Positions 673 to 37,569 are shown, counted from the stretch's first letter. The stretch is 38,405 bases of DNA from a virus (IMGVR_UViG_2639762960_000007), one strand, 5' to 3'. The notes: generated by a model not told the origin, from the sequence alone. Made by a program: numbers and translations.

Positions 673-1245
673 TTACATTTCAGGTTGCGTTATGACAGTC
701 CCAACAGGGTGATAGCGGTAGATCGTTGACAGTCCAATATCATAGATAATTGCCAGCCGCTTTCTGTCATACCCTTTCTGGAGCAATCTTGCGATCTGCT
801 CATGCTGCTCCTTCGTCAGTTTCGGGCGACGTCCTCCAACTCTTCCTTGTGCTCGCGCAGCAGCCAGTCCTGCCAGCGTGCGCTCAACTATCAGTTCACG
901 CTCCATTTCTGCCAGTGCACCCATCATATGAAAAAAGAACCTTCCCATCGGAGTGCTGGTATCGATTGAATCCGTCAGACTGCGAAAATTGACACCTTTT
1001 GCGCGTAGCTCTTCTGTGAGAGCAATGAGGTGTTTCATTCTTCTACCCAACCGATCCAGCTTCCAGACCACCAATGTATCCCCTCTTTTAAGGCACTTTA
1101 AAGCGCGTTTCAGGCCTGGTCGTTCCGACTTGGTTCCGCTCATTTTGTCCTCAAAAATCTGTTCACATCCTGCGCACATTAATGCATTGCGTTGCAAATC
1201 TGTGTTTTGGTCATTTGTTGACACACGTATGTAGCCAATCAGCAT
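673..1245 (-). CDS. gin: Serine-recombinase DNA invertase (Gin/Pin/Hin/Cin family)
   Basis: ATG at 1243..1245 gives 190 aa starting MLIGYIRVSTNDQ (catalytic Ser motif) with a C-terminal HTH (RKRLAIIYDIGLSTIYRY). The longer track ORF starts at a non-ATG codon upstream. It lies next to the tail-fibre inverted repeats. Confidence 0.9.
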   Translation of the reverse strand: MLIGYIRVSTNDQNTDLQRNALMCAGCEQIFEDKMSGTKSERPGLKRALKCLKRGDTLVVWKLDRLGRRMKHLIALTEELRAKGVNFRSLTDSIDTSTPMGRFFFHMMGALAEMERELIVERTLAGLAAARAQGRVGGRRPKLTKEQHEQIARLLQKGYDRKRLAIIYDIGLSTIYRYHPVGTVITQPEM

Positions 1246-1311: not shown

Positions 1312-1510
1312 TTGGTTTGGGGGAAGGCTCTGCATTGCCTGTTGGTGTACCGGTTCCATGGCCCACCGCCACACCGCCAGCAGGCTGGTTAAAGTGCGAC
1401 GGGCGCGCCTTTACAAAAGAACAATATCCTGTTCTGGCCAGAGTCTACCCGACCCTCCGTCTTCCTGATTTACGCGGTGAGTTTATCCGTGGATGGGACG
1501 ACGGGCGCAA
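1312..1510 (+). repeat. Left arm of a ~199-bp inverted repeat flanking the invertible tail-fibre segment
   Basis: Sequence from ttggtttgggggaaggctctgcattgcc to gggacgacgggcgcaa matches the reverse complement of about 2730..2928; verified by eye over the ends and several internal blocks. Confidence 0.85.
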
Positions 1511-18252: not shown

Positions 18253-18388
18253 TTTGCTGTCCCGCGTTATGTTGTCGGAGACAGTTTGTGAGAAATGCAG
18301 GCCCGGCGATTTTAATCTGCTTTAGAAAACATCAGGGGAGAAGGACAGGGAAAGCAATGCGGTGAACCGGAAGCGGTTATAAAACAGA

Positions 18389-25100: not shown

Positions 25101-25451
25101 TTAAAGCCCCATCGCAACAGCCAGACAGACAGCTGCAACAATCAGTGCACGGCGGATTAACGCAGCAGAAAATACAAGGTGAAGGCCGGTCTGCACAGGG
25201 AAACGCCCTTCAGCCATCAGCCTGTCTTCATGTTTCAGGTACTGACCGGGACGGGCTTTGGGGAAGAGCGAACGGTCAAGCCAGTACCCCAGCACTGCTG
25301 CCAGCGTGATGAGTGCCAGCTTGTAGATCACAACAGGCAACTGCTGTGGCGAGACCAGAGCGATGATGCCCAGCAACAGCACTGAGGTCAGCAGCCAGCC
25401 GCTGAGGCGAGGTTTTTTAACAGGGGGAATGAATTTTTTCAGGTTTTTCAT
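25101..25451 (-). CDS. Holin (three predicted TM segments)
   Basis: ATG at 25449..25451 preceded by GAGGAG gives 116 aa. The track ORF opens 11 codons upstream (GTG at 25482..25484, then ATG at 25479..25481). First gene of the lysis cassette. Confidence 0.6.
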   Translation of the reverse strand: MKNLKKFIPPVKKPRLSGWLLTSVLLLGIIALVSPQQLPVVIYKLALITLAAVLGYWLDRSLFPKARPGQYLKHEDRLMAEGRFPVQTGLHLVFSAALIRRALIVAAVCLAVAMGL

Positions 25452-25565
25452 GTGTGTCTCCTCGTTTGGTGGAGACAGCATCACAAATGTGGCGGGATAC
25501 GGATTTTAAACAGCGTTAATAGTGAAGATGTAAACGTGCACTGCATGATGGCTTTGAAAGAACGA

Positions 25566-25593
25566 CCAGCCCGGTACCCGAACACCGGGCTGG
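25566..25593 (-). terminator. GC-rich hairpin (10-bp perfect stem, 8-nt loop); candidate minus-strand terminator
   Basis: ccagcccggt-acccgaac-accgggctgg; on the minus strand it is followed by tcgttctttc. Confidence 0.35.
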
Positions 25594-25698
25594 CCATCGC
25601 CCCACAGGAATGCGCTGTGAGCCGACCAAGGTTCAGTCAGTCTCGCGAGACCAGACTAGCCTGCCATATTTTTTATAATTGTAAAAGGCTTACAGATT

Positions 25699-26469
25699 AT
25701 GAAAATGCAGACATTACCCATCGTTCCATGGATTGGTGGCAAACGCCGCCTTGCAAAACACATCCTGCCGCTGTTTCCGGCGCATGAATGTTATGTGGAG
25801 CCGTTTTGTGGGGCAGCAGCGCTCTATTTTCTTAAGGTACCCGGCAAGATCGAAGTCATTAATGATATCAACGGTGAGCTGGTGAACCTGTATCGGGTGG
25901 TAAAACATCATCTGGAAGAATTTGTACGCCAGTTCAAATGGGCGCTGGTCAGCCGGCAGATCTACAAATGGCTGCAGATCACCCCGGAAGAAACACTGAC
26001 GGATATCCAGCGTGCAGCACGGTTCTACTACCTTCAGAAGCAGGCGTTTGGGGGCAAGGTGGCGGAGCACAGCTTTGGTACCTCCACCATATCCCCGCCA
26101 CGCTTCAACCTGCTGCGTATTGAAGAAGAACTGTCAGCGGCACACCTGCGGCTTTCCAGAACGGTCATAGAACACATGGACTGGCAACAGTGCATAGAAC
26201 GATATGATCGCCCGCATACGTTGTTCTACTGTGACCCTCCATACTGGGGAACGGAAGGTTATGGTGTGGAGTTCGGACTAGAAAATTATGATCATATGGC
26301 AGATTTAGCACGCAGGATCAAAGGGAAGATGATTATATCGGTGAACGATATCCCGGAAATGCGGCAGGCATTCAACGGTCTAAATATTCAGTCGGTTGAT
26401 ATCAGCTACAACCTCAAGATCACTGGCAAATCCAGTCGCAAGAAGGAACTCATTATCCTCAACTTTTGA
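25699..26469 (+). CDS. N6-adenine DNA methyltransferase, Dam (D12 class)-like, orphan
   Basis: 256 aa; ATG at 25699; motif I-like EPFCGAAAL and catalytic DPPY (FYCDPPYW); no adjacent restriction endonuclease candidate. Confidence 0.85.
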   Translation: MKMQTLPIVPWIGGKRRLAKHILPLFPAHECYVEPFCGAAALYFLKVPGKIEVINDINGELVNLYRVVKHHLEEFVRQFKWALVSRQIYKWLQITPEETLTDIQRAARFYYLQKQAFGGKVAEHSFGTSTISPPRFNLLRIEEELSAAHLRLSRTVIEHMDWQQCIERYDRPHTLFYCDPPYWGTEGYGVEFGLENYDHMADLARRIKGKMIISVNDIPEMRQAFNGLNIQSVDISYNLKITGKSSRKKELIILNF

Positions 26470-27664
26470 CCGAATAGTAAGACTTCATGCAGTGAATCAA
26501 GTACTGCATGAAGTCAAGGGCTGGTTTTGTGTACCAAAAATAAACAGTGATAGCGGTAATAATTCCCATAACTAGAACACCACGTATAATCCAGAACGTA
26601 CGTTTCTGCGTGTCTAGTCGCGCAGAAATACTGCTAAATACACCAGCCACGTCATCTTTAATGAAGGAATATTCCTTATTAATCTGTTTTTCTTTGTATT
26701 CAATTTCTTCGCCTAAGGCCTTTATAGATTGCATCTGGTTCGAAAGTGCCAGCCAGATTAACGTTGCAGCAAAAATGCATCCCAGAAGAATTATTGTGTT
26801 TGTTATCCCTTGGCCTGACCATTTCGTAGCCACTTTGAATTGGGTAGCTACGATAACAGAGGCAACAGGAATGCCAAGTATATGGTTCTGGATATCTGAA
26901 AACGCTTTGTGGATTTTACCCATTTCTTCGACTTTTGCAGCACGCAGTTGATCCATTACTTTGTCATAAGAGAATCCAGAAGAGTAGATACGATACCCTT
27001 TCAGAAACTTTTCATGCAGACGCTGAATATTGTCCAGTAAATAAGCGAATACTAGAGGTGAATCAATTCCATCACTAACTGCTTGAATACTTTCAATCAG
27101 AATATCTAGCTTCTGATCCTTATGGGTATCATCATTGAAACAAGCTATAAGGTTATCAAGATACTCCCTTTGCAAATTTTGTACATTTTCTGCAGCGAAG
27201 TGCGGTAATAGCTTGATAACTTCTTTTTTCAGAAAAACTAACTGACAAGTTGAGTTATCAAAGTAGGCCGCGGCCTCTTTTAGCAGGTTAACGAACTCGA
27301 GAATCTTCCGGTAGTTGCTGATGAAAACGGGGATATCTTCATCATCATTACGAAATTTTGTTTCTAGGATGAAGTAATTAGCTGGCTCAAGGCACTGATG
27401 CTTTGGAGCATTTAGCAATTTTTCATGGGTGGAAAACACAAGTCCCAGTCCACTCCGTGGTGACGTCACACGTAGGATGATCGTGTTACCTGGAGCGATA
27501 GTGCCTGTATCAATAGAAAGACCATATTCACGAGGATCATCAAGCAAAGTATCAACCAGATCACAATCGGACTGATCTAAGAGCAACAGCGAACCGACAC
27601 GAAACCCCTCTTGGAATTCCATACGACGATACAGAGCTGTCAGCATCTCAAATGAAATCGCCAC
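26459..27664 (-). CDS. Protein with ~270-aa soluble N-terminal domain and three C-terminal TM helices; second gene of the repressor-linked cassette (candidate effector)
   Basis: 401-aa ORF starting at GTG 27662..27664, two nt after the upstream gene's TAA, with GAGG upstream; alternative ATG at 27646. Hydrophobic segments IPVASVIVATQF, ITNTIILLGCIFAATLIWLALS and TFWIIRGVLVMGIITAITVYFWY. AT-rich codon usage. Confidence 0.65.
   Translation of the reverse strand: MAISFEMLTALYRRMEFQEGFRVGSLLLLDQSDCDLVDTLLDDPREYGLSIDTGTIAPGNTIILRVTSPRSGLGLVFSTHEKLLNAPKHQCLEPANYFILETKFRNDDEDIPVFISNYRKILEFVNLLKEAAAYFDNSTCQLVFLKKEVIKLLPHFAAENVQNLQREYLDNLIACFNDDTHKDQKLDILIESIQAVSDGIDSPLVFAYLLDNIQRLHEKFLKGYRIYSSGFSYDKVMDQLRAAKVEEMGKIHKAFSDIQNHILGIPVASVIVATQFKVATKWSGQGITNTIILLGCIFAATLIWLALSNQMQSIKALGEEIEYKEKQINKEYSFIKDDVAGVFSSISARLDTQKRTFWIIRGVLVMGIITAITVYFWYTKPALDFMQYLIHCMKSYYSVKS
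26481..26515. other. Perfect 13-bp-stem inverted repeat at the convergent junction of the methyltransferase and cassette genes
   Basis: gacttcatgcagt-gaatcaagt-actgcatgaagtc, 12 nt after the methyltransferase stop and inside the last ~20 codons of the minus-strand membrane-protein ORF. Confidence 0.4.
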
Positions 27665-27666
27665 GA

Positions 27667-28674
27667 TTAAACCTCAGTCATCCACATTTCCCTAAATTCT
27701 TCAGGTACATTACGTAGGGTGATAATATTTGTTTCCGGATCATAATCAATATAGCCTTCAGTTTTCCCTTCCCGGTCAAACTTAAGTTCCCAATATTTAG
27801 ACTTGCCTTTAAAAGATACCAGAGCCCGAATGACTCGACCATCAGGAACGAAGCCATCCGATAACTCCAACTCTTCAGCAGCAAGTTTACCAGATAACTC
27901 CTCGGGAGCCTGGGGCCAAATGGCATTAACAAGGGTTTCAAGACTAAGTGGTTCACCAGCCTTACTTAGTGCATGTAAGTGTTCAAACGCACTCTTAAGA
28001 AATGCATCTTTTTCAGCGCCGTCAAGTCCTTTCTCTGCCGCAAATGCTTTTAAAACGTCACGTAACTTTTCAGACTCTCGTTTGGCGATTAAGACATCAT
28101 TACAGCCTAGGAACTGTTTAAAATAGTTTGAAACATTACCTTGCCCCTTAAGAAAACTGATATAGCGCTCTGCGCCACTTTCCCACGCGGTTAAGTCAAT
28201 GCGCCCAGCCATACGCAGCTTAGCAATATCAAGATAGGTACTATCTTGGATGTTAAAATCATCTGTGACAGTGGACCCAATGGTAGCGCTTACAATAGCT
28301 ATCAACAGGTGTTCATTGTGTCCTATCACGATATTTGCAAAAAGAACATAACCACCAGTAGCCATGTTTTCTCGCTGAGAACGTTCCGTCAGGTGATGCA
28401 TCATTCGGCAGGAACTTTGGTAGAAATCATCAACACCTTCGAGAAAGTCCCCAGCCATTCGTTCCATAGGATAGTTATCCGTATCGCCTTCAAAATAGCC
28501 ATAACCTTTACCTGTGCGTCCTGCATATTTTGCACAAATATCGTTTATAAGGCGCTGAGAGGCTTCAGTAACTAGACCTTCTTCAGGACTCAATCTCTCA
28601 GAAGCGTCTCCATTTTGTTGTTTGTCTAAAATGTGAACTACAACGTGTTTAACTTCAATGGTCTGCTCAGACAT
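27667..28674 (-). CDS. NdpA/YejK (NA37)-like nucleoid-associated-protein homologue; first gene of the repressor-linked cassette (candidate sensor)
   Basis: 335 aa; ATG at 28672..28674 preceded by GGTGGA. It matches the length and several blocks of E. coli YejK as I recall it (GGYVLF, LLIAIVS, YLDIAKLRMAGRIDLTAWESG, RYISFLKGQG, IITLRNVPEEFRE). The family call is from memory, not a search. Confidence 0.55.
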   Translation of the reverse strand: MSEQTIEVKHVVVHILDKQQNGDASERLSPEEGLVTEASQRLINDICAKYAGRTGKGYGYFEGDTDNYPMERMAGDFLEGVDDFYQSSCRMMHHLTERSQRENMATGGYVLFANIVIGHNEHLLIAIVSATIGSTVTDDFNIQDSTYLDIAKLRMAGRIDLTAWESGAERYISFLKGQGNVSNYFKQFLGCNDVLIAKRESEKLRDVLKAFAAEKGLDGAEKDAFLKSAFEHLHALSKAGEPLSLETLVNAIWPQAPEELSGKLAAEELELSDGFVPDGRVIRALVSFKGKSKYWELKFDREGKTEGYIDYDPETNIITLRNVPEEFREMWMTEV

Positions 28675-29780: not shown

Positions 29781-30692
29781 ATGGGACGCACCAAATCACC
29801 GGTTAGCACTGAACTGAACGTCGAGGTACCGCTGTCGGATGATCTCAATGTCAGTCTAAACGCCATGACACAGCATCGCATGGAAATCATGCAACAGTTC
29901 GGCGATGGTCTGCCTTATGAGCGCGATCGTGTTGTCCATGAGGCACGCTTTTATATGGCACAGAGCGCTGAGGCCATGCTGGAGGCAGGTAAGCGGCTGA
30001 TAATCCTTAAGGAAAATGAACCACACGGGGAGTTTATAAAGATTCTTGAAAGTGAGTTGGGGCTGGCATACCGGACATCTGTGAGAATGATGCAAGCATC
30101 GACAAAATACTTATCCCCGGCGCTGAAACCAAATGTGCCAACGTTGGCACATTTGGGAAAAGCCAAACTTTTCGAATTAATGACAGAAGACGACGAAGAG
30201 CTTGCCGAACTGGCCGACGGCGGCACAGTTGCCGGCCTGACGCTTGACGACGTTGATCGCATGTCAGTACGCGAACTTCGCCAGGCCCTGCGCGAAGCGC
30301 GCGAAACCAACGCAGCACAACAGCGCGTACTCGCCGATAAAAATGAAAAAATTGATTCTCTCTCTACCAGACTGGAAAAGAAATCCCGTATTCAGCTGCC
30401 TGAGCCTGATGAGGAGGTTAAGAAGCTGCGGGCGGAAGTGACAGCATTAGCGGTTGAGGCGGAATCTGCCATCGCCGTTCGACTGTCCAGCGCTTTTGAG
30501 ACACTGTGCGCATATTGTGCTGAAAACATGATTGATACCCCCAGAGACTTCATGGCAGGCCTGGTCTGTCAACTGGAAAGCACAGCGCGTAGCCTGCGCT
30601 CCACATTTGACCTGCCGGACGAGCCAACAGGCGATGTCGCGCCTTCATGGCTGACTGAGCCGACGCCACAGATTAACGGGCTGGAGGCATAA
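29781..30692 (+). CDS. Hypothetical early protein with coiled-coil central region
   Basis: 303 aa; ATG at 29781 preceded by AAGGAG; no motif I can assign. Confidence 0.55.
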   Translation: MGRTKSPVSTELNVEVPLSDDLNVSLNAMTQHRMEIMQQFGDGLPYERDRVVHEARFYMAQSAEAMLEAGKRLIILKENEPHGEFIKILESELGLAYRTSVRMMQASTKYLSPALKPNVPTLAHLGKAKLFELMTEDDEELAELADGGTVAGLTLDDVDRMSVRELRQALREARETNAAQQRVLADKNEKIDSLSTRLEKKSRIQLPEPDEEVKKLRAEVTALAVEAESAIAVRLSSAFETLCAYCAENMIDTPRDFMAGLVCQLESTARSLRSTFDLPDEPTGDVAPSWLTEPTPQINGLEA

Positions 30693-32475: not shown

Positions 32476-33642
32476 ATGCTGGTACTGAAGCAGCAACTGA
32501 AAGAGGCCCGTATTCCACAGGCGGTGGTGGCGAGAGCTGTCGATGTTTCTGAGGCCACGCTGGCCCAGATTGTGAATCATAACGCGTGGCCCCGCACCAG
32601 CCCCGGAGAAGTGCGCCGGCGTCTTGCGTCCTGGCTGGAAAGTCAGGGGATTGATACAACGAAGAGTTTTGATGCTGTACAGGGCGCGGCCACGCCCCGT
32701 ACAGCGGGTACCACAGATAAAACGAGCCTCAGTGAGGAAGAGAATATGTTACTCAAAAAACAGGTGTTATTTCCAGCAACCAAAAAAGCGTTTGGTCTTT
32801 TCCGTGACCCGTTCGCCGACGAAGCCATGCAGGGTTCTGATGATGTGTTCACCACCCCGGATATTCGCTACGTGCGTGAGGCGTTGTACCAGACAGCCCG
32901 TCATGGTGGGTTTATGGCCGTCATCGGTGAGTCCGGTGCGGGTAAATCCACGCTGCGCCGCGACCTGACTGAACGTATCAACCGCGAGAATGCGCCGGTA
33001 ATTGTTATCGAGCCATACATCATCGCTATGGAAGACAACGATGTGAAAGGGAAAACCCTGAAGGCAGCAGCGATTGCCGAAGCCATTATCAGTACCATCG
33101 CACCACTGGAAAGCATCAGACGCAGTCAGGACGCCCGCTTTCGCCAGTTGCATCGCGTCCTGAAAGACAGCAGCCAGGCGGGGTTCAGCCACGTTCTGGT
33201 GATTGAGGAGGCCCACAGTCTGCCCATTCCGACACTGAAACACCTCAAACGCTTTTTTGAGCTGGAGTCCGGTTTCAAAAAACTGCTGTCCATCGTGCTG
33301 ATTGGCCAGCCGGAACTGGCGACAAAACTGTCTGAACGCAATATGGAAGTCCGTGAAGTCGTTCAGCGCTGTGAGGTGGTCGAACTTCTGCCTCTGGACA
33401 ATAACCTTGAAGAGTTTCTGACGTTCAAACTGCAACGGGCCGGTAAACAACTGACGGACATTATGGACGCCAGCGCAGTGGATGCCATACGTGCCCGCCT
33501 GAGCAATCCGGGAAGTCATCGTAAAAATATGGTCAGCCTGCTGTATCCGCTGGCCGTCAGTAACCTGGTAATAGCCGCCATGAATCTGGCCGCTGAAATC
33601 GGGGTTCCACAGGTCAACGCTGACGTTGTCAAAGGGGTTTAA
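32476..33642 (+). CDS. Transposition ATPase (Mu B-like, AAA+)
   Basis: ATG at 32476 preceded by GAGGAGGG (track ORF starts earlier, inside the transposase gene); Walker A GESGAGKST and Walker B-like HVLVIEEAH. Confidence 0.8.
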   Translation: MLVLKQQLKEARIPQAVVARAVDVSEATLAQIVNHNAWPRTSPGEVRRRLASWLESQGIDTTKSFDAVQGAATPRTAGTTDKTSLSEEENMLLKKQVLFPATKKAFGLFRDPFADEAMQGSDDVFTTPDIRYVREALYQTARHGGFMAVIGESGAGKSTLRRDLTERINRENAPVIVIEPYIIAMEDNDVKGKTLKAAAIAEAIISTIAPLESIRRSQDARFRQLHRVLKDSSQAGFSHVLVIEEAHSLPIPTLKHLKRFFELESGFKKLLSIVLIGQPELATKLSERNMEVREVVQRCEVVELLPLDNNLEEFLTFKLQRAGKQLTDIMDASAVDAIRARLSNPGSHRKNMVSLLYPLAVSNLVIAAMNLAAEIGVPQVNADVVKGV

Positions 33643-33644
33643 TA

Positions 33645-33914
33645 ATGAAATCCACCACAGGTATCAACCAGCAAATCAGCAAAGTGCAGTCAGCCATTAT
33701 GGCGCTTAAGGCGACGAACACGGATGTACAAAGCATCACCATCAGGGGTAACAAACCTGTCATCCGCGTTTCCCGGAGTGCGCATTGCATGCGCATGCTT
33801 GAGCAGGGAAAGGCCTGTTATCTGTATACCGGTCATGACCACAGGGGACATTTCCGTCAGGGCGTTTTCGAACTGCACGGCTGTCGCGTCGTGTGGCCGG
33901 AATCTTTGTGGTAA
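33645..33914 (+). CDS. Hypothetical small early protein
   Basis: 89 aa; ATG at 33645, 2 nt after the B-like stop; Cys/His-containing C-terminus. Confidence 0.45.
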   Translation: MKSTTGINQQISKVQSAIMALKATNTDVQSITIRGNKPVIRVSRSAHCMRMLEQGKACYLYTGHDHRGHFRQGVFELHGCRVVWPESLW

Positions 33915-33941
33915 TCAGCACAACAGGAGGAGTCATAAAAT

Positions 33942-34472
33942 ATGGCAAAAAGTACAAAAGGGGCAAAACGTATCAAAGCCGCAGCAGCACTCTGGGTGCC
34001 GGGGACACGCGAAGAGGTCATTGAGGGAATCAGACTGCTTGGTGACGCGCAACGTGAACTGGTCAGGGCTGAAACAGAAATGAATGACACCATTGGCGAC
34101 ATCACTGCACGTTATGCCCCGCTCACCGAGAGCCTGAAAAAACGCATGGCCGAACTGCAGTCCGGTATCCAGACATGGTGTGAGGCGCACCGTGATGAAC
34201 TGACCGGCAACGGGAAGGTGAAGTTCGCTAACCTCACCACCGGCGAGGTGCAGTGGCGAAACCGTCCGCCGTCAGTCAGCATTCGCGGGGCGGATAATGT
34301 TATTGAATTACTGAGACGTCTGGGGCTTGAGCGCTTTATTCGTGTAAAGGAGGAAATAAATAAAGATGCCATTCTGAATGAAAAAGAGGCTGTGAAAAAT
34401 ATTCCCGGTATTACCATAAAAAGTGATATTGAGGATTTTTCAATAATTCCTTTTGAGCAGGATGTGCAGTAA
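33942..34472 (+). CDS. gam: Host-nuclease inhibitor Gam (Mu Gam family, Ku-like DNA-end binding)
   Basis: 176 aa; ATG at 33942 preceded by GGAGGAG. It resembles Mu Gam along the whole length as I recall it, including the shared C-terminal motif GIEDFSIIPFEQ. Confidence 0.9.
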   Translation: MAKSTKGAKRIKAAAALWVPGTREEVIEGIRLLGDAQRELVRAETEMNDTIGDITARYAPLTESLKKRMAELQSGIQTWCEAHRDELTGNGKVKFANLTTGEVQWRNRPPSVSIRGADNVIELLRRLGLERFIRVKEEINKDAILNEKEAVKNIPGITIKSDIEDFSIIPFEQDVQ

Positions 34473-34569
34473 ACACACCACGTTAATTATTTAATAAAAA
34501 CATTTTCTTTTTTATTCCGGCGTCAGCGCCGCGGGCTTCTGCACGCCGGAAACAGAGGAGAATTAAATT

Positions 34570-34764
34570 ATGATATTTAAATGTATTCAGTGCGAGAGGG
34601 ATATAACAGCCCTGCGTTTTCACAGCGCCATCGCCGTGATGTCCGGTAAGTATCACATACCTGCAGTACGTGTCACCCTGGTCTGCCCGTACTGCAGCCA
34701 GCATTTTTCGGCGGACGTGCCCGTCATAGAATTCTCCCGCCCTGACAGGGAGGACGCGCAATGA
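34570..34764 (+). CDS. Small zinc-ribbon protein, Com-like
   Basis: 64 aa; ATG at 34570 preceded by GAGGAG; two CxxC pairs (FKCIQCERDI and LVCPYCSQHF). Confidence 0.45.
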   Translation: MIFKCIQCERDITALRFHSAIAVMSGKYHIPAVRVTLVCPYCSQHFSADVPVIEFSRPDREDAQ

Positions 34765-35033
34765 TTACCCCACAGGAAGCACGACAGCGCACCCGAACTC
34801 TTGTTGAACACTATGTCAACGAGTGTGAATGCCGCGACCTCACCGATGTGAAGCACGTCCTGACGGCGCTAATCAGCATGGCCACACAGGCCATTGTGGC
34901 GACCAACGGAAAGGAGGCTGCCCTGCAGGTACTGATGAACACACTCACCCACACGGCAGAGCATGAGGTGCCGTACCGGATGGAAACCACTGCAGAAGGC
35001 GGCCTGCACATCACCGTCAGCCGGAAGCACTGA
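34761..35033 (+). CDS. Hypothetical early protein
   Basis: 90 aa; ATGA overlap with the upstream gene. Confidence 0.45.
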   Translation: MITPQEARQRTRTLVEHYVNECECRDLTDVKHVLTALISMATQAIVATNGKEAALQVLMNTLTHTAEHEVPYRMETTAEGGLHITVSRKH

Positions 35034-35042
35034 GGGCGCGGC

Positions 35043-35339
35043 ATGACACGAAACACCGAACTCACCCGCACCGCCCTCTACCGTCTGGCCCTGCAGCGTT
35101 TCGGGCCGGACGCACAGGCCCTGAAACTGACAGAAGAGGCCGCTGAACTGGCGGCCAGTGCTGCCCGCAATCTGAACGGACAGGGCAGCGAAAGTGACCT
35201 CGCGGCAGAGCTGGCAGACGTGGAAATCATGACAGAGCAACTGCGCCTTCAGGGGATGGACCGGCTGATTGACTTCCACAAACAGAAAAAACTGGAACGT
35301 CTGGCTGCACGACTGGGCGTGATTTACACGAACGAGTAA
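35043..35339 (+). CDS. MazG-like nucleotide pyrophosphohydrolase domain protein (tentative)
   Basis: 98 aa; ATG at 35043 preceded by GAGGG; acidic helices LTEEAAELAASAA and AELADVEIMTEQL resemble the EExxE/D motifs of small MazG-like proteins. Confidence 0.4.
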   Translation: MTRNTELTRTALYRLALQRFGPDAQALKLTEEAAELAASAARNLNGQGSESDLAAELADVEIMTEQLRLQGMDRLIDFHKQKKLERLAARLGVIYTNE

Positions 35340-35353
35340 CCGGGAGGCATTCA

Positions 35354-35569
35354 ATGGCTGACATACTCAGGGAAATCACCGCATGGACACTGATTCTTAC
35401 TGGCCTGGCGACATGCCTCAGTGCGGGGGCAGCCCTGGCTGCCCTGCTGATGCACATAACAACACAGTGGTTATGGGAAAAGCTTAAAGCAGCATACAGC
35501 CTGAAAGAGCTGTCCGACGCTGTCCGGGCATGGAAACGGCAGAAAAATACCGGAGATACAGAACAATGA
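35354..35569 (+). CDS. Small membrane protein
   Basis: 71 aa; ATG at 35354 preceded by GGGAGG; hydrophobic segment WTLILTGLATCLSAGAALAALLM. Confidence 0.45.
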   Translation: MADILREITAWTLILTGLATCLSAGAALAALLMHITTQWLWEKLKAAYSLKELSDAVRAWKRQKNTGDTEQ

Positions 35570-36249
35570 CAGACCAGAATAAACACATTGAGAAACTGAA
35601 AAAGTTGCTGGCGCTGGCCGCATCCGGCAACCCGCACGAGGCCGCTCTGGCACTGCGCCGAGCCCGTAAACTGATGGATGTTCACGGCATCACACATTCC
35701 GACATTGCTATGAGTGATATTGATGAAACCATCAGTCATTACTGGCCGACAGGCAGTCTCCGTCCACCGCGCTACATGCTGGGCCTGATGAACATCATCC
35801 GCGAGGCATTTGGTGTTAACTCCATCATTCACCCCGGCACGCATCCGTCTGTGGGGTTCTACGGTAACCGGGAACGAGCGGCACTGGCTGCGTACACCTG
35901 GGAAGTGCTGGTCCGCCAGCTGAAAAAGGCGCGTCAGCAGTATATCAGCGCACAGAACAAAAGAATAAAAAACGCCACCCGTACCAGCCGTGGAGACCAG
36001 TTTGCTGAAGGCTGGGTACTGGCCGTTATCAGTGAAATACAGTCCTTTGCCCTGACCGATGATGAGCGTGAACTGATGCAACAGTGGCTGGAACATAAAT
36101 ACCCGCAGACGCAAACCACCAGGGCGCGTAAACCGGGAAGAAGCCGCAATGGCGACGCCTCGCGCTATGCGGGGTTTCGTGAAGGGCAGAACGTCAGACT
36201 GCACCGCCCGGTCAGTGGGCAGGAACAACAGAAACTGGAGGCCAGATGA
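35566..36249 (+). CDS. DUF2786-like phage protein
   Basis: ATG at 35566 in ATGA overlap with the upstream gene, preceded by GGAGA; N-terminus IEKLKKLLALAASGNPHEAALALRRARKLMDVHGI matches the DUF2786 signature as I recall it. Confidence 0.55.
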   Translation: MTDQNKHIEKLKKLLALAASGNPHEAALALRRARKLMDVHGITHSDIAMSDIDETISHYWPTGSLRPPRYMLGLMNIIREAFGVNSIIHPGTHPSVGFYGNRERAALAAYTWEVLVRQLKKARQQYISAQNKRIKNATRTSRGDQFAEGWVLAVISEIQSFALTDDERELMQQWLEHKYPQTQTTRARKPGRSRNGDASRYAGFREGQNVRLHRPVSGQEQQKLEAR

Positions 36250-36476
36250 TTACGCTATCAGGTAACAGCCGGAAATTAAAAGCCTGCCGAATATCTGCCA
36301 GATACCTTTTTGCCCGCGCCTTTTTTAAGAACGTCAGGCCGGGGATCACAATTGGTGTTATTGCCGGACGCGAACAGGTTGAAAAATACATGTCAGGTGC
36401 ATGGTGGAATAACGACCCTGTCATTGCTGCCCGTAATATTCATATCGAATGGGGAGGTATTCAGAATGACTACTGA
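36246..36476 (+). CDS. Hypothetical small protein
   Basis: 76 aa; ATG at 36246 overlapping the upstream stop. Confidence 0.35.
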   Translation: MITLSGNSRKLKACRISARYLFARAFFKNVRPGITIGVIAGREQVEKYMSGAWWNNDPVIAARNIHIEWGGIQNDY

Positions 36477-36672
36477 AACCATTGTCTGTTTTCTTTTCTG
36501 GTATATGTACGCAGGATCATGCAGCGCAAGACTTCATCGTTCCCTGGGCTATGGCAGGCACTACGACACCGCGCATTACATCCTGTACATGACCGCCGTC
36601 ATGTTGTTCTGGCCAGTCACCCTGCCAGCTGCAACCGACATTGTTGCCGACAGACTGAAAAAAAGGAGATGA
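36466..36672 (+). CDS. Small membrane protein
   Basis: 68 aa from ATG 36466 preceded by GGGGAGG; two hydrophobic segments. Confidence 0.4.
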   Translation: MTTETIVCFLFWYMYAGSCSARLHRSLGYGRHYDTAHYILYMTAVMLFWPVTLPAATDIVADRLKKRR

Positions 36673-36673
36673 T

Positions 36674-37123
36674 ATGCAGAAAAAACGCCTGATACAGCTT
36701 ATCCATATTGCCCGTAATGAACTGGGTATGGATGAAGACACCTACCGCCAGATGTTACAGGGGCTGACCGGTAAAGCCTCAACCAAAGGAATGGATACCA
36801 CACAACTAAACTGCGTGCTGGAATCCATGAAAAAGAAAGGCTTTCGCGTTAAACCAGCCAGAAAAGCCAGCTCCGGTTTACCGCTGGATAACCATCCGCA
36901 GTCCAGGAAAATTCGTGCGCTATGGCTTGAAATGGCTGCTGCCGGCATTGTTCGTGACCGTTCAGAAAATGCATTAGCGCGGTGGATCAAGCGGGAAACG
37001 GGCATCAGCGCCCTGCGCTGGCTCAATACTGAACAGGCAAGCAGTGTTATTGAGAAACTGAAGAAGTGGCAGCACAGAGCTGCGGGAGTAAAACATGAGC
37101 GACCTGAATCAGTTTCGAAGTAA
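36674..37123 (+). CDS. gemA: GemA-like protein (Mu gp16 family)
   Basis: 149 aa; ATG at 36674 preceded by AAGGAGA; N-terminal LIQLIHIARNELGMDEDTYRQMLQGLTGKAS matches the GemA signature; sits immediately upstream of mor. Confidence 0.75.
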   Translation: MQKKRLIQLIHIARNELGMDEDTYRQMLQGLTGKASTKGMDTTQLNCVLESMKKKGFRVKPARKASSGLPLDNHPQSRKIRALWLEMAAAGIVRDRSENALARWIKRETGISALRWLNTEQASSVIEKLKKWQHRAAGVKHERPESVSK

Positions 37124-37493
37124 AGGGCCGGAACTCCTGGTGGAGCTGGCACAGCATACCTCTGAGACCGTTCGCGAGATTATTGATATTGAGCCCGCAA
37201 TTGCCGACCAGATTGGTCAGGCCGTCGCGAACCGAATGATGCAGGTCTGGGGCGGGCAAAACGTTTATTTCCCGATGGGCATGGTATGGAAGGTCAGTCA
37301 GCGCGACCGGGAAATCTTCAGGGAGTTTAACGGACGCAACCACCACGAACTGGCCCGCAAGTTTGGTGTTTCGCTTCAGTGGGTCTACAGCGTGGTTAAG
37401 CGGGTCAGAAAAGAAGAACTGGATCGGATGCAGGGCAGGTTGTTTGATGAAGATCTGCCAGAGGAGACGAAAGACGTTAACAAATCCAGATAA
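37095..37493 (+). CDS. mor: Mor-family transcription activator (middle operon regulator)
   Basis: 132 aa; ATG at 37095 preceded by GGGAG; C-terminal HTH ELARKFGVSLQWVYSVVKR resembles Mor/C family; overlaps the gemA 3' end. Confidence 0.8.
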   Translation: MSDLNQFRSKGPELLVELAQHTSETVREIIDIEPAIADQIGQAVANRMMQVWGGQNVYFPMGMVWKVSQRDREIFREFNGRNHHELARKFGVSLQWVYSVVKRVRKEELDRMQGRLFDEDLPEETKDVNKSR

Positions 37494-37536
37494 TTCCTGC
37501 TTGTTAAAGTCCTTTCAAAAATCTCCTTATTGTATA

Positions 37537-37569
37537 AAAGCACGGTAGACCCCTTACCGTGCTTTTTTT
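37537..37569 (+). terminator. Rho-independent terminator after mor
   Basis: aaagcacggta-gacccct-taccgtgcttt followed by a T-run, 44 nt after the mor stop. Confidence 0.75.

What the first reader, a model, noticed from the sequence alone, without database searches (positions are those of the whole stretch)
25452..25698. Late-operon control region with a GC-rich hairpin that could insulate lysis genes from lysogenic read-through
A perfect 10-bp stem (25566..25593) followed on the minus strand by a U-containing run sits between the accessory island and the holin. Any transcript reading leftward from the repressor and cassette would meet it before the lysis genes. The late promoter should lie between the hairpin and the holin RBS.
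Basis: inference. Interest (0 to 1): 0.35.

Follow-up and report, generated by a model that had tools for sequence, protein, structure and literature searches.

The report
Conserved small RNA beside phage dam
The flagged GC-rich hairpin is real, but it is the terminator end of a previously unlisted, about 100-base structured RNA that always sits back-to-back with a phage DNA adenine methylase gene in many unrelated phages; here it also shields the lysis genes from that RNA's own promoter.

Summary
The 10-bp perfect stem at 25566..25593 exists and is the only GC-rich hairpin of that quality in the window. The window is a BcepMu-like transposable prophage of E. coli. The stretch 25452..25698 lies between the holin (minus strand) and a divergent dam gene.

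The hairpin is not a free-standing insulator. It is helix P1 of a Y-shaped, roughly 100-nt element (25551..25656, minus strand). I found this element next to dam in about 120 phage loci.
- In a 98-sequence alignment all 29 base pairs show compensatory changes, and 96.5% of cells are paired (31-53% when partners are slid).
- G.U pairs, a conserved TGnTAnnnT promoter element and a pyrimidine/T-rich tail all place the RNA on the minus strand.
- A search that did not use dam found the element only beside dam or com-dam (36 of 36 loci).
- Rfam 15 has no match.

Relatives carry a Mu Com homologue between the element and dam, so the module parallels Mu com-mom with its divergent promoter momP2.

The late promoter does lie between the hairpin and the holin ribosome-binding site (25503..25522). 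The RNA's function is inferred, not shown.

The parts
25566..25593 (.). It is the apical part of helix P1.
25551..25656 (-). Whole conserved dam-linked structured element, a predicted small RNA of about 100 nt: P4 5' hairpin, P0 closing helix, Pj+P2 arm, P1 arm and a U-rich tail.
   Evidence: Covariance model R1 scores 95.4 bits, E 1.4e-24. The single-sequence fold reproduces the consensus, -48.7 kcal/mol, z -3.3.
25564..25595 (-). P1: 13-pair GC-rich stem-loop including G.U pairs. It is the terminator hairpin of the element.
   Evidence: P1 covers helices 5 and 6 of the 98-sequence alignment; all 12 pairs have changes on both sides.
25553..25563 (-). 3' strand of P0 (GUUC, 25563-25560) followed by a UUUC tail: the U/pyrimidine-rich run that follows the structure.
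   Evidence: Relatives have a mean of 5.7 T in the 10 nt after P0, against a 23% background. Positions 1-7 are almost only pyrimidines.
25596..25634 (-). Junction arm: P0 5' strand GAAC (25634-25631), the conserved unpaired CUUG, Pj (25626-23 with 25599-96) and the P2 hairpin CUCACAG..CUGUGGG (25621-15 with 25607-01).
   Evidence: P0 is 99.5% paired, Pj 98.3%, P2 97.3%.
25639..25652 (-). P4: GGUCUCGCGAGACU, containing the perfect 12-bp palindrome GTCTCGCGAGAC, at the predicted 5' end of the RNA.
   Evidence: It is palindromic including its centre in about 45 of 51 distinct versions.
25658..25666 (-). Extended -10 of the leftward promoter: TGG CAGGCT. Its complement AGCCT (25658-25662, plus strand) can pair with the dam Shine-Dalgarno region AGGCT (25686-25690); I call this helix P5.
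   Evidence: 78 of 79 distinct sequences have a hexamer xAnnnT, with A2 78/78, T6 78/78, T1 67/78 and TGn 39/78, placed 5-8 nt before P4. P5 was seen.
25680..25685 (-). -35-like TTTACA of the leftward promoter, 16 bp from the -10. It overlaps the complement of the dam Shine-Dalgarno sequence.
   Evidence: Sequence reading. It is conserved only in the enterobacterial clade.
25699..26469 (+). dam, a D12-class N6-adenine DNA methyltransferase and the gene the element is linked to.
   Evidence: Pfam PF02086, 7.3e-28; RefSeq annotation.
25503..25522 (-). Late (lysis-operon) promoter core CTATTAACGCTGTTTAAAAT, with the -10 TAAAAT at 25508..25503.
   Evidence: Near-invariant in 18 relatives. Unique exact match in the window. 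A related copy lies upstream of the head genes.
25456..25476 (-). Holin leader hairpin GUCUCC...GGAGAC that pairs with the holin Shine-Dalgarno sequence.
25101..25451 (-). Holin, the first gene of the leftward lysis/late operon.
   Evidence: Pfam Holin_2-3, 7e-42.
26481..26515 (.). 13-bp perfect inverted repeat at the 3' end of the accessory cassette, 12 nt past the dam stop. It is the first hairpin met by leftward transcripts from the repressor/cassette.

Best explanation
The interval is a mosaic junction between two modules.

Right part (25551..25698): the control region of a mobile dam module. It carries a leftward sigma-70 promoter with an extended -10 (TGG CAGGCT, 25666..25658). Transcription should start at about 25652 and give a roughly 100-nt RNA. 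That RNA folds into a 5' palindromic hairpin (P4) and a Y-shaped body (P0, Pj-P2, P1). It ends at the flagged hairpin P1/P0 and its U-rich tail near 25553-25560.

Shown by comparison:
- the structure;
- the strand;
- the promoter-like element;
- the terminator-like tail;
- the strict linkage to dam or com-dam.

Inferred:
- The RNA and its promoter hold dam in check outside late growth. The promoter could compete with rightward dam transcription, as Mu momP2 does at Pmom. The RNA would also be fully antisense to any dam leader that crosses the element.
- The dam Shine-Dalgarno sequence can in addition pair with the complement of the leftward -10 (helix P5).
- The hairpin's immediate job is to stop this leftward transcript. 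In this prophage, that keeps it out of the holin-endolysin operon 100 bp downstream.

Left part (25452..25550): the lysis operon's own late promoter and a leader hairpin that buries the holin Shine-Dalgarno sequence.
For: Structure:
- RNAalifold on 26 and 25 MAFFT-aligned sequences gives 24 of 31 and 22 of 29 pairs with changes on both sides.
- On the 25-sequence alignment, 92.1% of cells are paired against about 38% when partners are slid, with 0 of 500 shuffles reaching it.
- On the 98-sequence alignment, 96.5% of cells are paired and 29 of 29 pairs have changes on both sides.

Strand:
- The consensus fold is -39.4 kcal/mol on the minus strand and -28.3 on the plus strand.
- Four pairs are mostly G.U or alternate G.U/G-C/A-U; on the plus strand these would be C.A. 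In the 26-sequence alignment 82 cells are G.U on the minus strand and 23 would be G.U on the plus strand.
- The -10 hexamer sits at a fixed distance from P4 in 78 of 79 sequences.
- The T-rich tail is conserved.

Linkage:
- Model R1 finds the element upstream of dam in 76 of the 85 loci scanned.
- A dam-independent pattern scan gave 38 true elements. In 36 of the 36 with enough flank, dam or com-dam starts 36-57 nt from the element's 5' end (25-46 nt for com in L140). The other 2 sit at contig ends.
- R1 gave no hit in 80 chance-match loci, about 600 kb.

Module boundary at the hairpin.

Com: the small ORF between element and dam in one clade is Pfam PF10122, 3.9e-16.

Mu precedent: a divergent overlapping promoter momP2 competes with Pmom (PMC3378877). 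Com with a DNA adenine methylase is known in B3 and FluMu (PMC3299994).
Against: - No transcript data are available. The promoter, the start site and termination are all sequence inferences.
- In the window the -10 is CAGGCT, lacking the T at position 1.
- The U tract is short and interrupted (GUUCUUUC), and the simple terminator scan did not call it.
- A mere decoy promoter would not need a conserved Y-shaped RNA, so the proposed function is incomplete.
- Where dam is transcribed from in this prophage is unknown, so overlap between the RNA and the dam mRNA is not established here.
- The full two-fold symmetry of P4, centre included, is not explained by a simple RNA hairpin.
- Mu itself has no match to the model.
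Confidence: 0.6

Rival explanations
1. One reading: a stand-alone intrinsic terminator whose selected role is to protect the lysis genes from lysogenic read-through coming from the repressor and accessory cassette.
For: The hairpin is oriented correctly, with a T-rich tail on the minus strand. It lies upstream of the holin on that strand. The repressor, the NA37 protein gene and the 401-aa gene are all on the minus strand.
Against: The hairpin is retained with dam in phages where the downstream minus-strand sequence is the antisense of tail or spanin genes. In ST131-type and KP12 relatives other genes separate it from the holin. It is embedded in a larger covarying structure. The cassette ends with its own 13-bp hairpin at 26481..26515, followed by 770 nt of untranslated antisense dam; by general knowledge such a stretch is a likely target for Rho.
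Confidence: 0.15
2. The element acts on the plus strand as a structured 5' leader of the dam mRNA, a translational control like the Mu mom inhibitory stem that Com opens. The minus-strand features would then be incidental.
For: The helix AGCCU/AGGCU pairs the dam Shine-Dalgarno sequence, and its arms differ in another clade (GAAUU/AAUUC). In most annotated phages dam follows co-oriented late genes, so read-through would transcribe the leader. Com lies between the element and dam in one clade.
Against: The wobble pattern, the consensus energy, the -10 hexamer with T1/A2/T6 plus TGn, and the T-rich tail all fit the minus strand. No conserved plus-strand promoter was found. The two readings are not exclusive: a plus-strand leader would be the antisense target of the minus-strand RNA.
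Confidence: 0.15
3. The palindromes are DNA sites for a dimeric regulator, for example the phage Mor/C-type late activator or another protein, rather than RNA helices.
For: P4 is a perfect palindrome including its centre in about 45 of 51 versions, which an RNA hairpin does not require. The window encodes a Mor-family protein (Pfam PF08765). In the window P4 is centred about 41 bp upstream of a start site predicted from the TATAAT at 25674..25679 (sequence reading).
Against: P1, P2, P0 and Pj vary by compensatory and wobble changes across phages with unrelated regulators. The two late promoters of this phage share a different, non-palindromic motif. No similar dyad occurs elsewhere in the window. 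The TATAAT is not kept in close relatives. Departures from symmetry in P4 are G.T on the minus strand only.
Confidence: 0.07
4. The element is a folded single-strand DNA recombination site (like an integron attC site) that moves the dam cassette between phages.
For: Homology between unrelated phages starts exactly at the outer edge of P1. Structure rather than sequence is conserved, on one strand.
Against: No recombinase is linked to it. No partner site lies at the other end of dam. The conserved -10 and T-rich tail are unexplained by this model. Ends of phage accessory-gene modules (morons) at terminators are common by established knowledge.
Confidence: 0.03

Closest known systems
Phage Mu com-mom operon control region (Pmom with the divergent overlapping promoter momP2)
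   Same: A toxic DNA-modification gene sits at the edge of the late region. A Com zinc-finger gene lies directly upstream of it in part of the family. A leftward promoter lies back-to-back with, and overlapping, the start region of the modification gene. The modification gene's ribosome-binding site can be sequestered in a stem.
   Different: The gene is a D12 Dam methylase, not Mom. The window has no com. No GATC/OxyR sites were seen. No C/Mor dyad was recognised. The leftward transcript here would be a conserved, covarying, terminated structured RNA, which to my knowledge has not been described for momP2. Model R1 does not match Mu.
Cis-antisense control RNAs of mobile elements (IS10 RNA-OUT, lambda OOP, P22 sar)
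   Same: A short, highly structured RNA with its own promoter and an intrinsic terminator, encoded opposite to and next to the start of the gene it would control.
   Different: Overlap with the dam mRNA is not shown. The RNA has a three-way junction and a palindromic 5' segment. It is horizontally mobile together with its gene across unrelated phage types.
Intrinsic (Rho-independent) terminators at the borders of phage accessory-gene modules (morons)
   Same: A GC-rich stem-loop with a U-rich tail exactly at a mosaic boundary. It insulates neighbouring operons.
   Different: The stem is closed by an extra helix (P0) that joins it to a second arm. The U tract is short and interrupted. The terminator points away from the module's gene.
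Phage-encoded Hfq-binding sRNAs such as VP882 VpdS and lambda PreS/Lpr1
   Same: Small RNAs encoded by temperate phages. VP882 carries a copy of this element (56.8 bits).
   Different: VpdS is reported as about 50 nt and trans-acting (PMC12197685). Its map position was not available to me, so whether it is the same RNA is untested.

Membership tests
Intrinsic (Rho-independent) terminator | Stable GC-rich stem-loop | tested here: met
   A 10-bp perfect core, 13-16 pairs with G.U, about -28.7 kcal/mol.
Intrinsic (Rho-independent) terminator | U tract directly after the stem on the transcribed strand | tested here: inconclusive
   The window has UCGUUCUUUC on the minus strand and none on the plus strand. 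Relatives have a mean of 5.7 T in 10 nt. The consensus scan did not call it.
Intrinsic (Rho-independent) terminator | Termination activity | not testable with these tools
   Needs a reporter assay or Term-seq.
Any Rfam 15 RNA family | Match to a curated covariance model | tested here: not met
   No match in the whole window at gathering score. No match at E up to 10 in 25400..25800.
Independent small-RNA gene | Own promoter at a fixed distance upstream of the structure | tested here: met
   A TAnnnT hexamer lies 5-8 nt before P4 in 78 of 79 distinct sequences, with TGn in half. This is sequence evidence only.
Independent small-RNA gene | Conserved secondary structure with covariation on one strand | tested here: met
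Independent small-RNA gene | Detected transcript | not testable with these tools
   No expression data are held. RefSeq annotates nothing in this interval.
Mu Pmom/momP2-type control region | Com translational activator gene directly upstream of the modification gene | tested here: not met
   No Com-like CxxC...CxxC ORF in the window. It is present in a sister clade as Pfam PF10122.
Mu Pmom/momP2-type control region | Divergent promoter overlapping the start region of the modification gene | tested here: met
   The leftward -10 at 25663..25658 and -35 at 25685..25680 overlap the dam Shine-Dalgarno region. Sequence level only.
Mu Pmom/momP2-type control region | C/Mor-type activator dyad upstream of a promoter that lacks a -35 | tested here: inconclusive
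   P4 is a dyad but is unlike the phage's late-promoter motif. The TATAAT at 25674 is not conserved.
Mu Pmom/momP2-type control region | Upstream GATC cluster (Dam/OxyR control) | tested here: not met
   Reading the sequence, there is no GATC in 25555..25698.
Mu Pmom/momP2-type control region | Sequence or structure homology to Mu | tested here: not met
   No R1 hit in Mu 33500-36717, even with the speed filters off.
Cis-antisense regulatory RNA | Overlap with the target mRNA on the opposite strand | not testable with these tools
   The dam transcription start is unknown. In most annotated relatives dam follows co-oriented late genes.
Mor/C-dependent late promoter (for 25503..25522) | Good -10, no -35, an activator encoded by the phage, and a motif shared between late operons | tested here: met
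   A TAAAAT -10. Mor is Pfam PF08765, 1.1e-43. The motif is shared with the region upstream of the head genes.
Mor/C-dependent late promoter (for 25503..25522) | Dyad-symmetric activator site centred near -43.5 | tested here: inconclusive
   Conservation stops at about -28. Only a 6-bp GTGCAC (25536-41) lies near -42.5 in the window, and it is not conserved.
Integron attC-like folded DNA site | Linked integrase and conserved core sites | tested here: not met
   No such gene appears in the annotated loci.

The most novel reading that the evidence does not exclude
The element encodes a new class of phage small RNA that is an obligate partner of orphan Dam methylase genes. Its 5' segment, always a perfect palindrome but of clade-specific sequence, would make the RNA pair with a second copy of itself, or present the same sequence in sense and antisense transcripts. 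That pairing would switch the RNA between an inactive form and a form that gates Dam synthesis. This would also give a function to the long-known but unexplained leftward transcription at Mu-type modification operons.
Probability: 0.2. Interest if true: 0.75.

Novelty: new variant of a known kind. Interest (0 to 1): 0.58.

Why it matters
- Phage-borne Dam methylases are widespread, help phages evade restriction, and are harmful to the host if mis-expressed. How they are kept silent in lysogens is known in detail only for Mu mom.
- A conserved, strictly linked RNA gives a concrete, testable handle on that control in many temperate phages of Escherichia, Klebsiella, Pseudomonas, Burkholderia, Vibrio, Halomonas, Stenotrophomonas and Acinetobacter. 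These include the laboratory phages VP882, B3, phiE125 and KS9.
- It corrects annotation. Small ORFs drawn over the element (B3 ORF45/46, VP882 gp36) are probably not genes.
- For this prophage, it shows what keeps a nearby promoter-like element from reading into the holin-endolysin operon.

Tried and rejected
1. Hairpin as a Mor/C activator dyad for the lysis promoter. Rejected: the stem sequence changes by compensation in unrelated phages. The real conserved late-promoter block lies at 25503..25522 and is not palindromic. No second copy of either half-site stands out in the window.
2. Hairpin as part of a dispersed chromosomal repeat (REP/ERIC/MITE). This was suggested by a median of 2 matches per E. 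coli genome. Rejected: in the two relatives examined the matches lie within the same prophage type. In the ST131-type prophage the holin-side and dam-side halves of the interval are separated by inserted genes.
3. A known RNA family. Rfam gives nothing at gathering score or at E up to 10.
4. Homology to the Mu mom control region. R1 finds nothing in Mu.
5. A Com gene hidden in the window. None found.
6. Pattern scan of the genome collection for taxonomic spread. It was swamped by chance matches, and 0 of 80 were confirmed by R1. It served only as a specificity control.
7. ORF-based census of the orientation of the upstream gene. It is unreliable in high-GC DNA (it misclassified phiE125) and was discarded. 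Only annotated records were used.
8. Literature search for a prior description of the motif. None was found in the held library. The VP882 sRNA paper (Sprenger et al. 2024) is not held, so identity with VpdS could not be checked.
9. A conserved plus-strand promoter for dam. None was found. The TATAAT at 25674..25679 is specific to a few sequences.

Full report
**What the window is.** The window matches a prophage of E. coli M-17 at 100% identity, and related copies occur in 636 of 5,426 complete E. coli genomes. The gene order is that of a BcepMu-like transposable phage.
- Late genes run leftward from a holin (25101..25451) through an SLT endolysin, a spanin, the terminase, and head and tail genes.
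- An early operon runs rightward from about 29235 to a Mor-family activator (37095..37493).
- Between them lie a rightward D12-class dam gene (25699..26469) and a leftward cassette: a 401-aa protein, an NA37 protein and an HTH repressor.

The finding's interval, 25452..25698, is the divergent gap between the holin and dam.

**The observation.** CCAGCCCGGT (25566-75) and ACCGGGCTGG (25584-93) are perfectly complementary with 8 nt between them. On the minus strand G.U pairs extend the stem to 13-16 pairs, about -28.7 kcal/mol. It is followed by UCGUUCUUUC; the plus strand has no T run. It is the only perfect 10-bp hairpin with at least 8 G/C in the window, against 0.04 expected in dinucleotide shuffles.

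**The hairpin belongs to dam, not to the lysis operon.** A sensitive search of E. coli genomes shows that most relatives match only 25555..25698, that is, from just outside the hairpin to the dam start. In an ST131 prophage three other genes lie between the holin and this block. In Klebsiella phage KP12 one other gene does. Homology between a Burkholderia-type locus and the siphoviruses phiE125, phi1026b and KS9 also begins exactly at the hairpin and runs to the end of dam. The hairpin therefore marks the edge of a mobile dam module.

**The hairpin is one helix of a larger conserved structure.**
- In 80 IMG/VR loci fetched through Dam (64-100% amino-acid identity), a strong hairpin sits at the same distance from dam. 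Its stem sequences differ widely, and a T-rich run follows it on the strand opposite to dam.
- Aligning the region shows more helices: a short palindromic hairpin (P4), a closing helix (P0), a short helix (Pj) carrying a hairpin (P2), and the flagged stem (P1).
- RNAalifold finds 24 of 31 pairs with changes on both sides.
- On a trimmed MAFFT alignment, 92.1% of cells pair against about 38% when partners are slid by 1-2 columns. None of 500 shuffles reaches this.
- A covariance model (R1) then found full-length matches upstream of dam in 76 of the 85 loci scanned, including the window at 25551..25656 (95.4 bits).
- On the resulting 98-sequence alignment all 29 pairs show changes on both sides and 96.5% of cells pair. 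That alignment is fitted to the model, so it leans towards the structure.
- The predicted window RNA folds on its own into the same structure: -48.7 kcal/mol, z -3.3.

**Which strand.**
- The same alignment folds to -39.4 kcal/mol on the minus strand and -28.3 on the plus strand.
- Four pairs are mainly G.U, or alternate G.U with G-C or A-U: 5-29, 45-88, 47-86 and 90-139 in the 98-sequence alignment. These would be C.A mismatches on the plus strand.
- Just upstream of P4 on the minus strand, 78 of 79 distinct sequences carry a hexamer with A at position 2 and T at position 6 in all, T at position 1 in 67, and TGn before it in 39. It lies 5-8 nt before the first P4 pair. This is the signature of an extended -10 promoter that would start transcription at the base of P4.
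- After P0 the next ten bases hold on average 5.7 T, against 23% T in the element, and almost no purines in the first seven.
- In the window these features are TGG CAGGCT (25666..25658), a -35-like TTTACA (25685..25680), a start near 25652 and an end near 25553-25560.

All of this is inference from sequence. No transcript data were available.

**Linkage to dam.** A pattern taken from the element alone, with no reference to dam, was scanned over the viral collection. R1 confirmed 38 of the 80 returned loci. In all 36 with enough flank, dam starts 36-57 nt from the element's 5' end on the other strand; in one of them (L140) a com gene 25-46 nt from the element precedes dam. The other two are at contig ends. 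Eighty chance matches from the genome collection gave no R1 hit, which shows the model is specific.

In annotated phages R1 finds the element in:
- Pseudomonas phages Lodos and B3;
- Vibrio phage VP882;
- Halomonas phage phiHAP-1;
- Stenotrophomonas phages S1 and Bhz63;
- Acinetobacter phage AM106;
- a phage deposited as a Microcystis phage;
- Burkholderia phages phiE125 and KS9.

It does not find it in Mu, or in two alphaproteobacterial phages with 43%-identical Dam. One of those, Aussie, shows a look-alike when folded. Rfam 15 has no matching family, and I found no description in the held literature.

**The Mu parallel.** In one clade the element lies 185-270 bp from dam, and the gap holds a small ORF with the Com zinc-ribbon signature, Pfam PF10122 at 3.9e-16. 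In these phages the module reads element, com, dam, as com and mom do at the end of Mu. In several phages dam also follows the tail or lysis genes, as mom does.

Com with a DNA adenine methylase in B3 and FluMu is in the literature (PMC3299994). So is the fact that Pmom is weak, needs the activator C, and competes with a divergent overlapping promoter, momP2, that captures RNA polymerase when C is absent (PMC3378877). The leftward promoter found here occupies the equivalent place. What is different is that it would make a conserved, terminated, structured RNA.

The window has no com. It has no GATC in the control region. It has no recognisable C/Mor dyad for dam.

**Likely mechanism.**
- Supported by comparison: a promoter-like element, a structured RNA, a terminator-like end, and obligate linkage to dam.
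- Inferred: the leftward promoter and its RNA restrain dam. The -10 and -35 overlap the dam translation start region. The complement of the -10 (AGCCU, 25658-62) can pair with the dam Shine-Dalgarno region (AGGCU, 25686-90), and the arms differ in another clade. Any dam mRNA that starts upstream, for example by read-through from late genes in most relatives, would be fully complementary to the RNA.
- The hairpin's direct role is to end the leftward transcript at the module's edge. In this prophage that edge is 100 bp from the holin, so it does act as an insulator for the lysis genes. The transcription it insulates against starts about 90 bp away.
- Leftward transcripts from the repressor cassette first meet a 13-bp hairpin at 26481..26515 and then 770 nt of untranslated antisense dam.

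**The left half of the interval.** An alignment of 18 relatives shows a near-invariant block CTnTTAACGCnnTTTAAAAT (window 25503..25522, minus strand). It also shows a leader hairpin GUCUCC/GGAGAC (25476..25456) that pairs with the holin Shine-Dalgarno sequence. A related promoter-and-leader block lies upstream of the head genes near 18309..18328. No such block precedes dam.

**What remains unexplained.**
- P4 is a perfect palindrome, centre included, in about 45 of 51 distinct versions although its sequence differs between clades. As a hairpin it is weak (-0.7 to -6.2 kcal/mol). As a homoduplex it is strong (-17 to -31 kcal/mol). An RNA hairpin needs no palindromic loop. Possible reasons are RNA dimerisation, a dimeric protein on the DNA, or a need for the same sequence in both transcripts. 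The departures from symmetry are G.T on the minus strand, which favours an RNA-level reading.
- The source of dam transcription in this prophage is unknown.
- Whether the published VP882 sRNA VpdS is this RNA is unknown.

**Verdict.** The feature is best described as the terminator helix of a new, widespread, dam-linked phage RNA element set in a Mu mom-like control region. Its function is inferred with moderate confidence.

Noticed in passing
window 25503..25522 (-), about 18309..18328 (-), 1085..1104 (+): A shared late-promoter/leader motif (T..TAA.GC...TTAAAAT followed by a CTGTCTCC leader) precedes the lysis operon and the head-gene cluster. A weaker third copy lies on the plus strand near the left end. 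It is probably the Mor-dependent late promoter set of this phage family.
   Followed up: partly
window 25456..25476 (-) and about 18262..18290 (-): Both late leaders contain a hairpin (GUCUCC/GGAGAC for the holin). For the holin the hairpin pairs with the Shine-Dalgarno sequence; for the head-gene leader it covers an SD-like GGGA. This suggests translational control of the first late genes.
   Followed up: partly
window 26481..26515: A 13-bp perfect inverted repeat with a 9-nt loop lies 12 nt after the dam stop and inside the last codons of the convergent 401-aa gene. It is a candidate two-way terminator between the convergent genes.
   Followed up: partly
window 26459..28674 (-): The accessory cassette is a 401-aa protein with a weak KwaA (Kiwa) match (8e-5) plus a 335-aa NA37/NdpA-like nucleoid-associated protein. 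Other genes take its place in the KP12 and ST131 relatives. It may be a defence or superinfection-exclusion module.
   Followed up: partly
window 37536..37566: A 12-bp perfect inverted repeat AAAAGCACGGTA..TACCGTGCTTTT lies 43 nt after the mor stop. It is probably the two-way terminator of the early operon.
   Followed up: no
window 30129..30156: An 18-nt-arm overlapping palindrome (CCAAATGTGCCAACGTTGGCACATTTGG) lies inside the DUF3102 gene. Its purpose is unknown.
   Followed up: no
L329 (phage B3) 1206..1312; L330 (VP882) 1350..1455: The annotated small ORFs B3 ORF45/ORF46 and VP882 gp36 overlie the RNA element and are probably not protein-coding genes.
   Followed up: partly
L337 (Sinorhizobium phage Aussie) 1316..1464; L336 (Ochrobactrum phage POA1180) 1315..1460: Phages with only 43%-identical Dam have the same 140-150 bp gap before dam. 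In Aussie it contains a 10-bp perfect palindrome (CCCTGCAGGG) and a GGUGCGUUAGCGCGCACC hairpin like P4 and P1, although R1 does not score them. The family may be broader.
   Followed up: partly
window 25678..25705 (-): A second promoter-like site (TTTTCA, 16 nt, TACAAT) lies upstream of the conserved leftward promoter and overlaps the first dam codons. It is not conserved in all relatives.
   Followed up: partly
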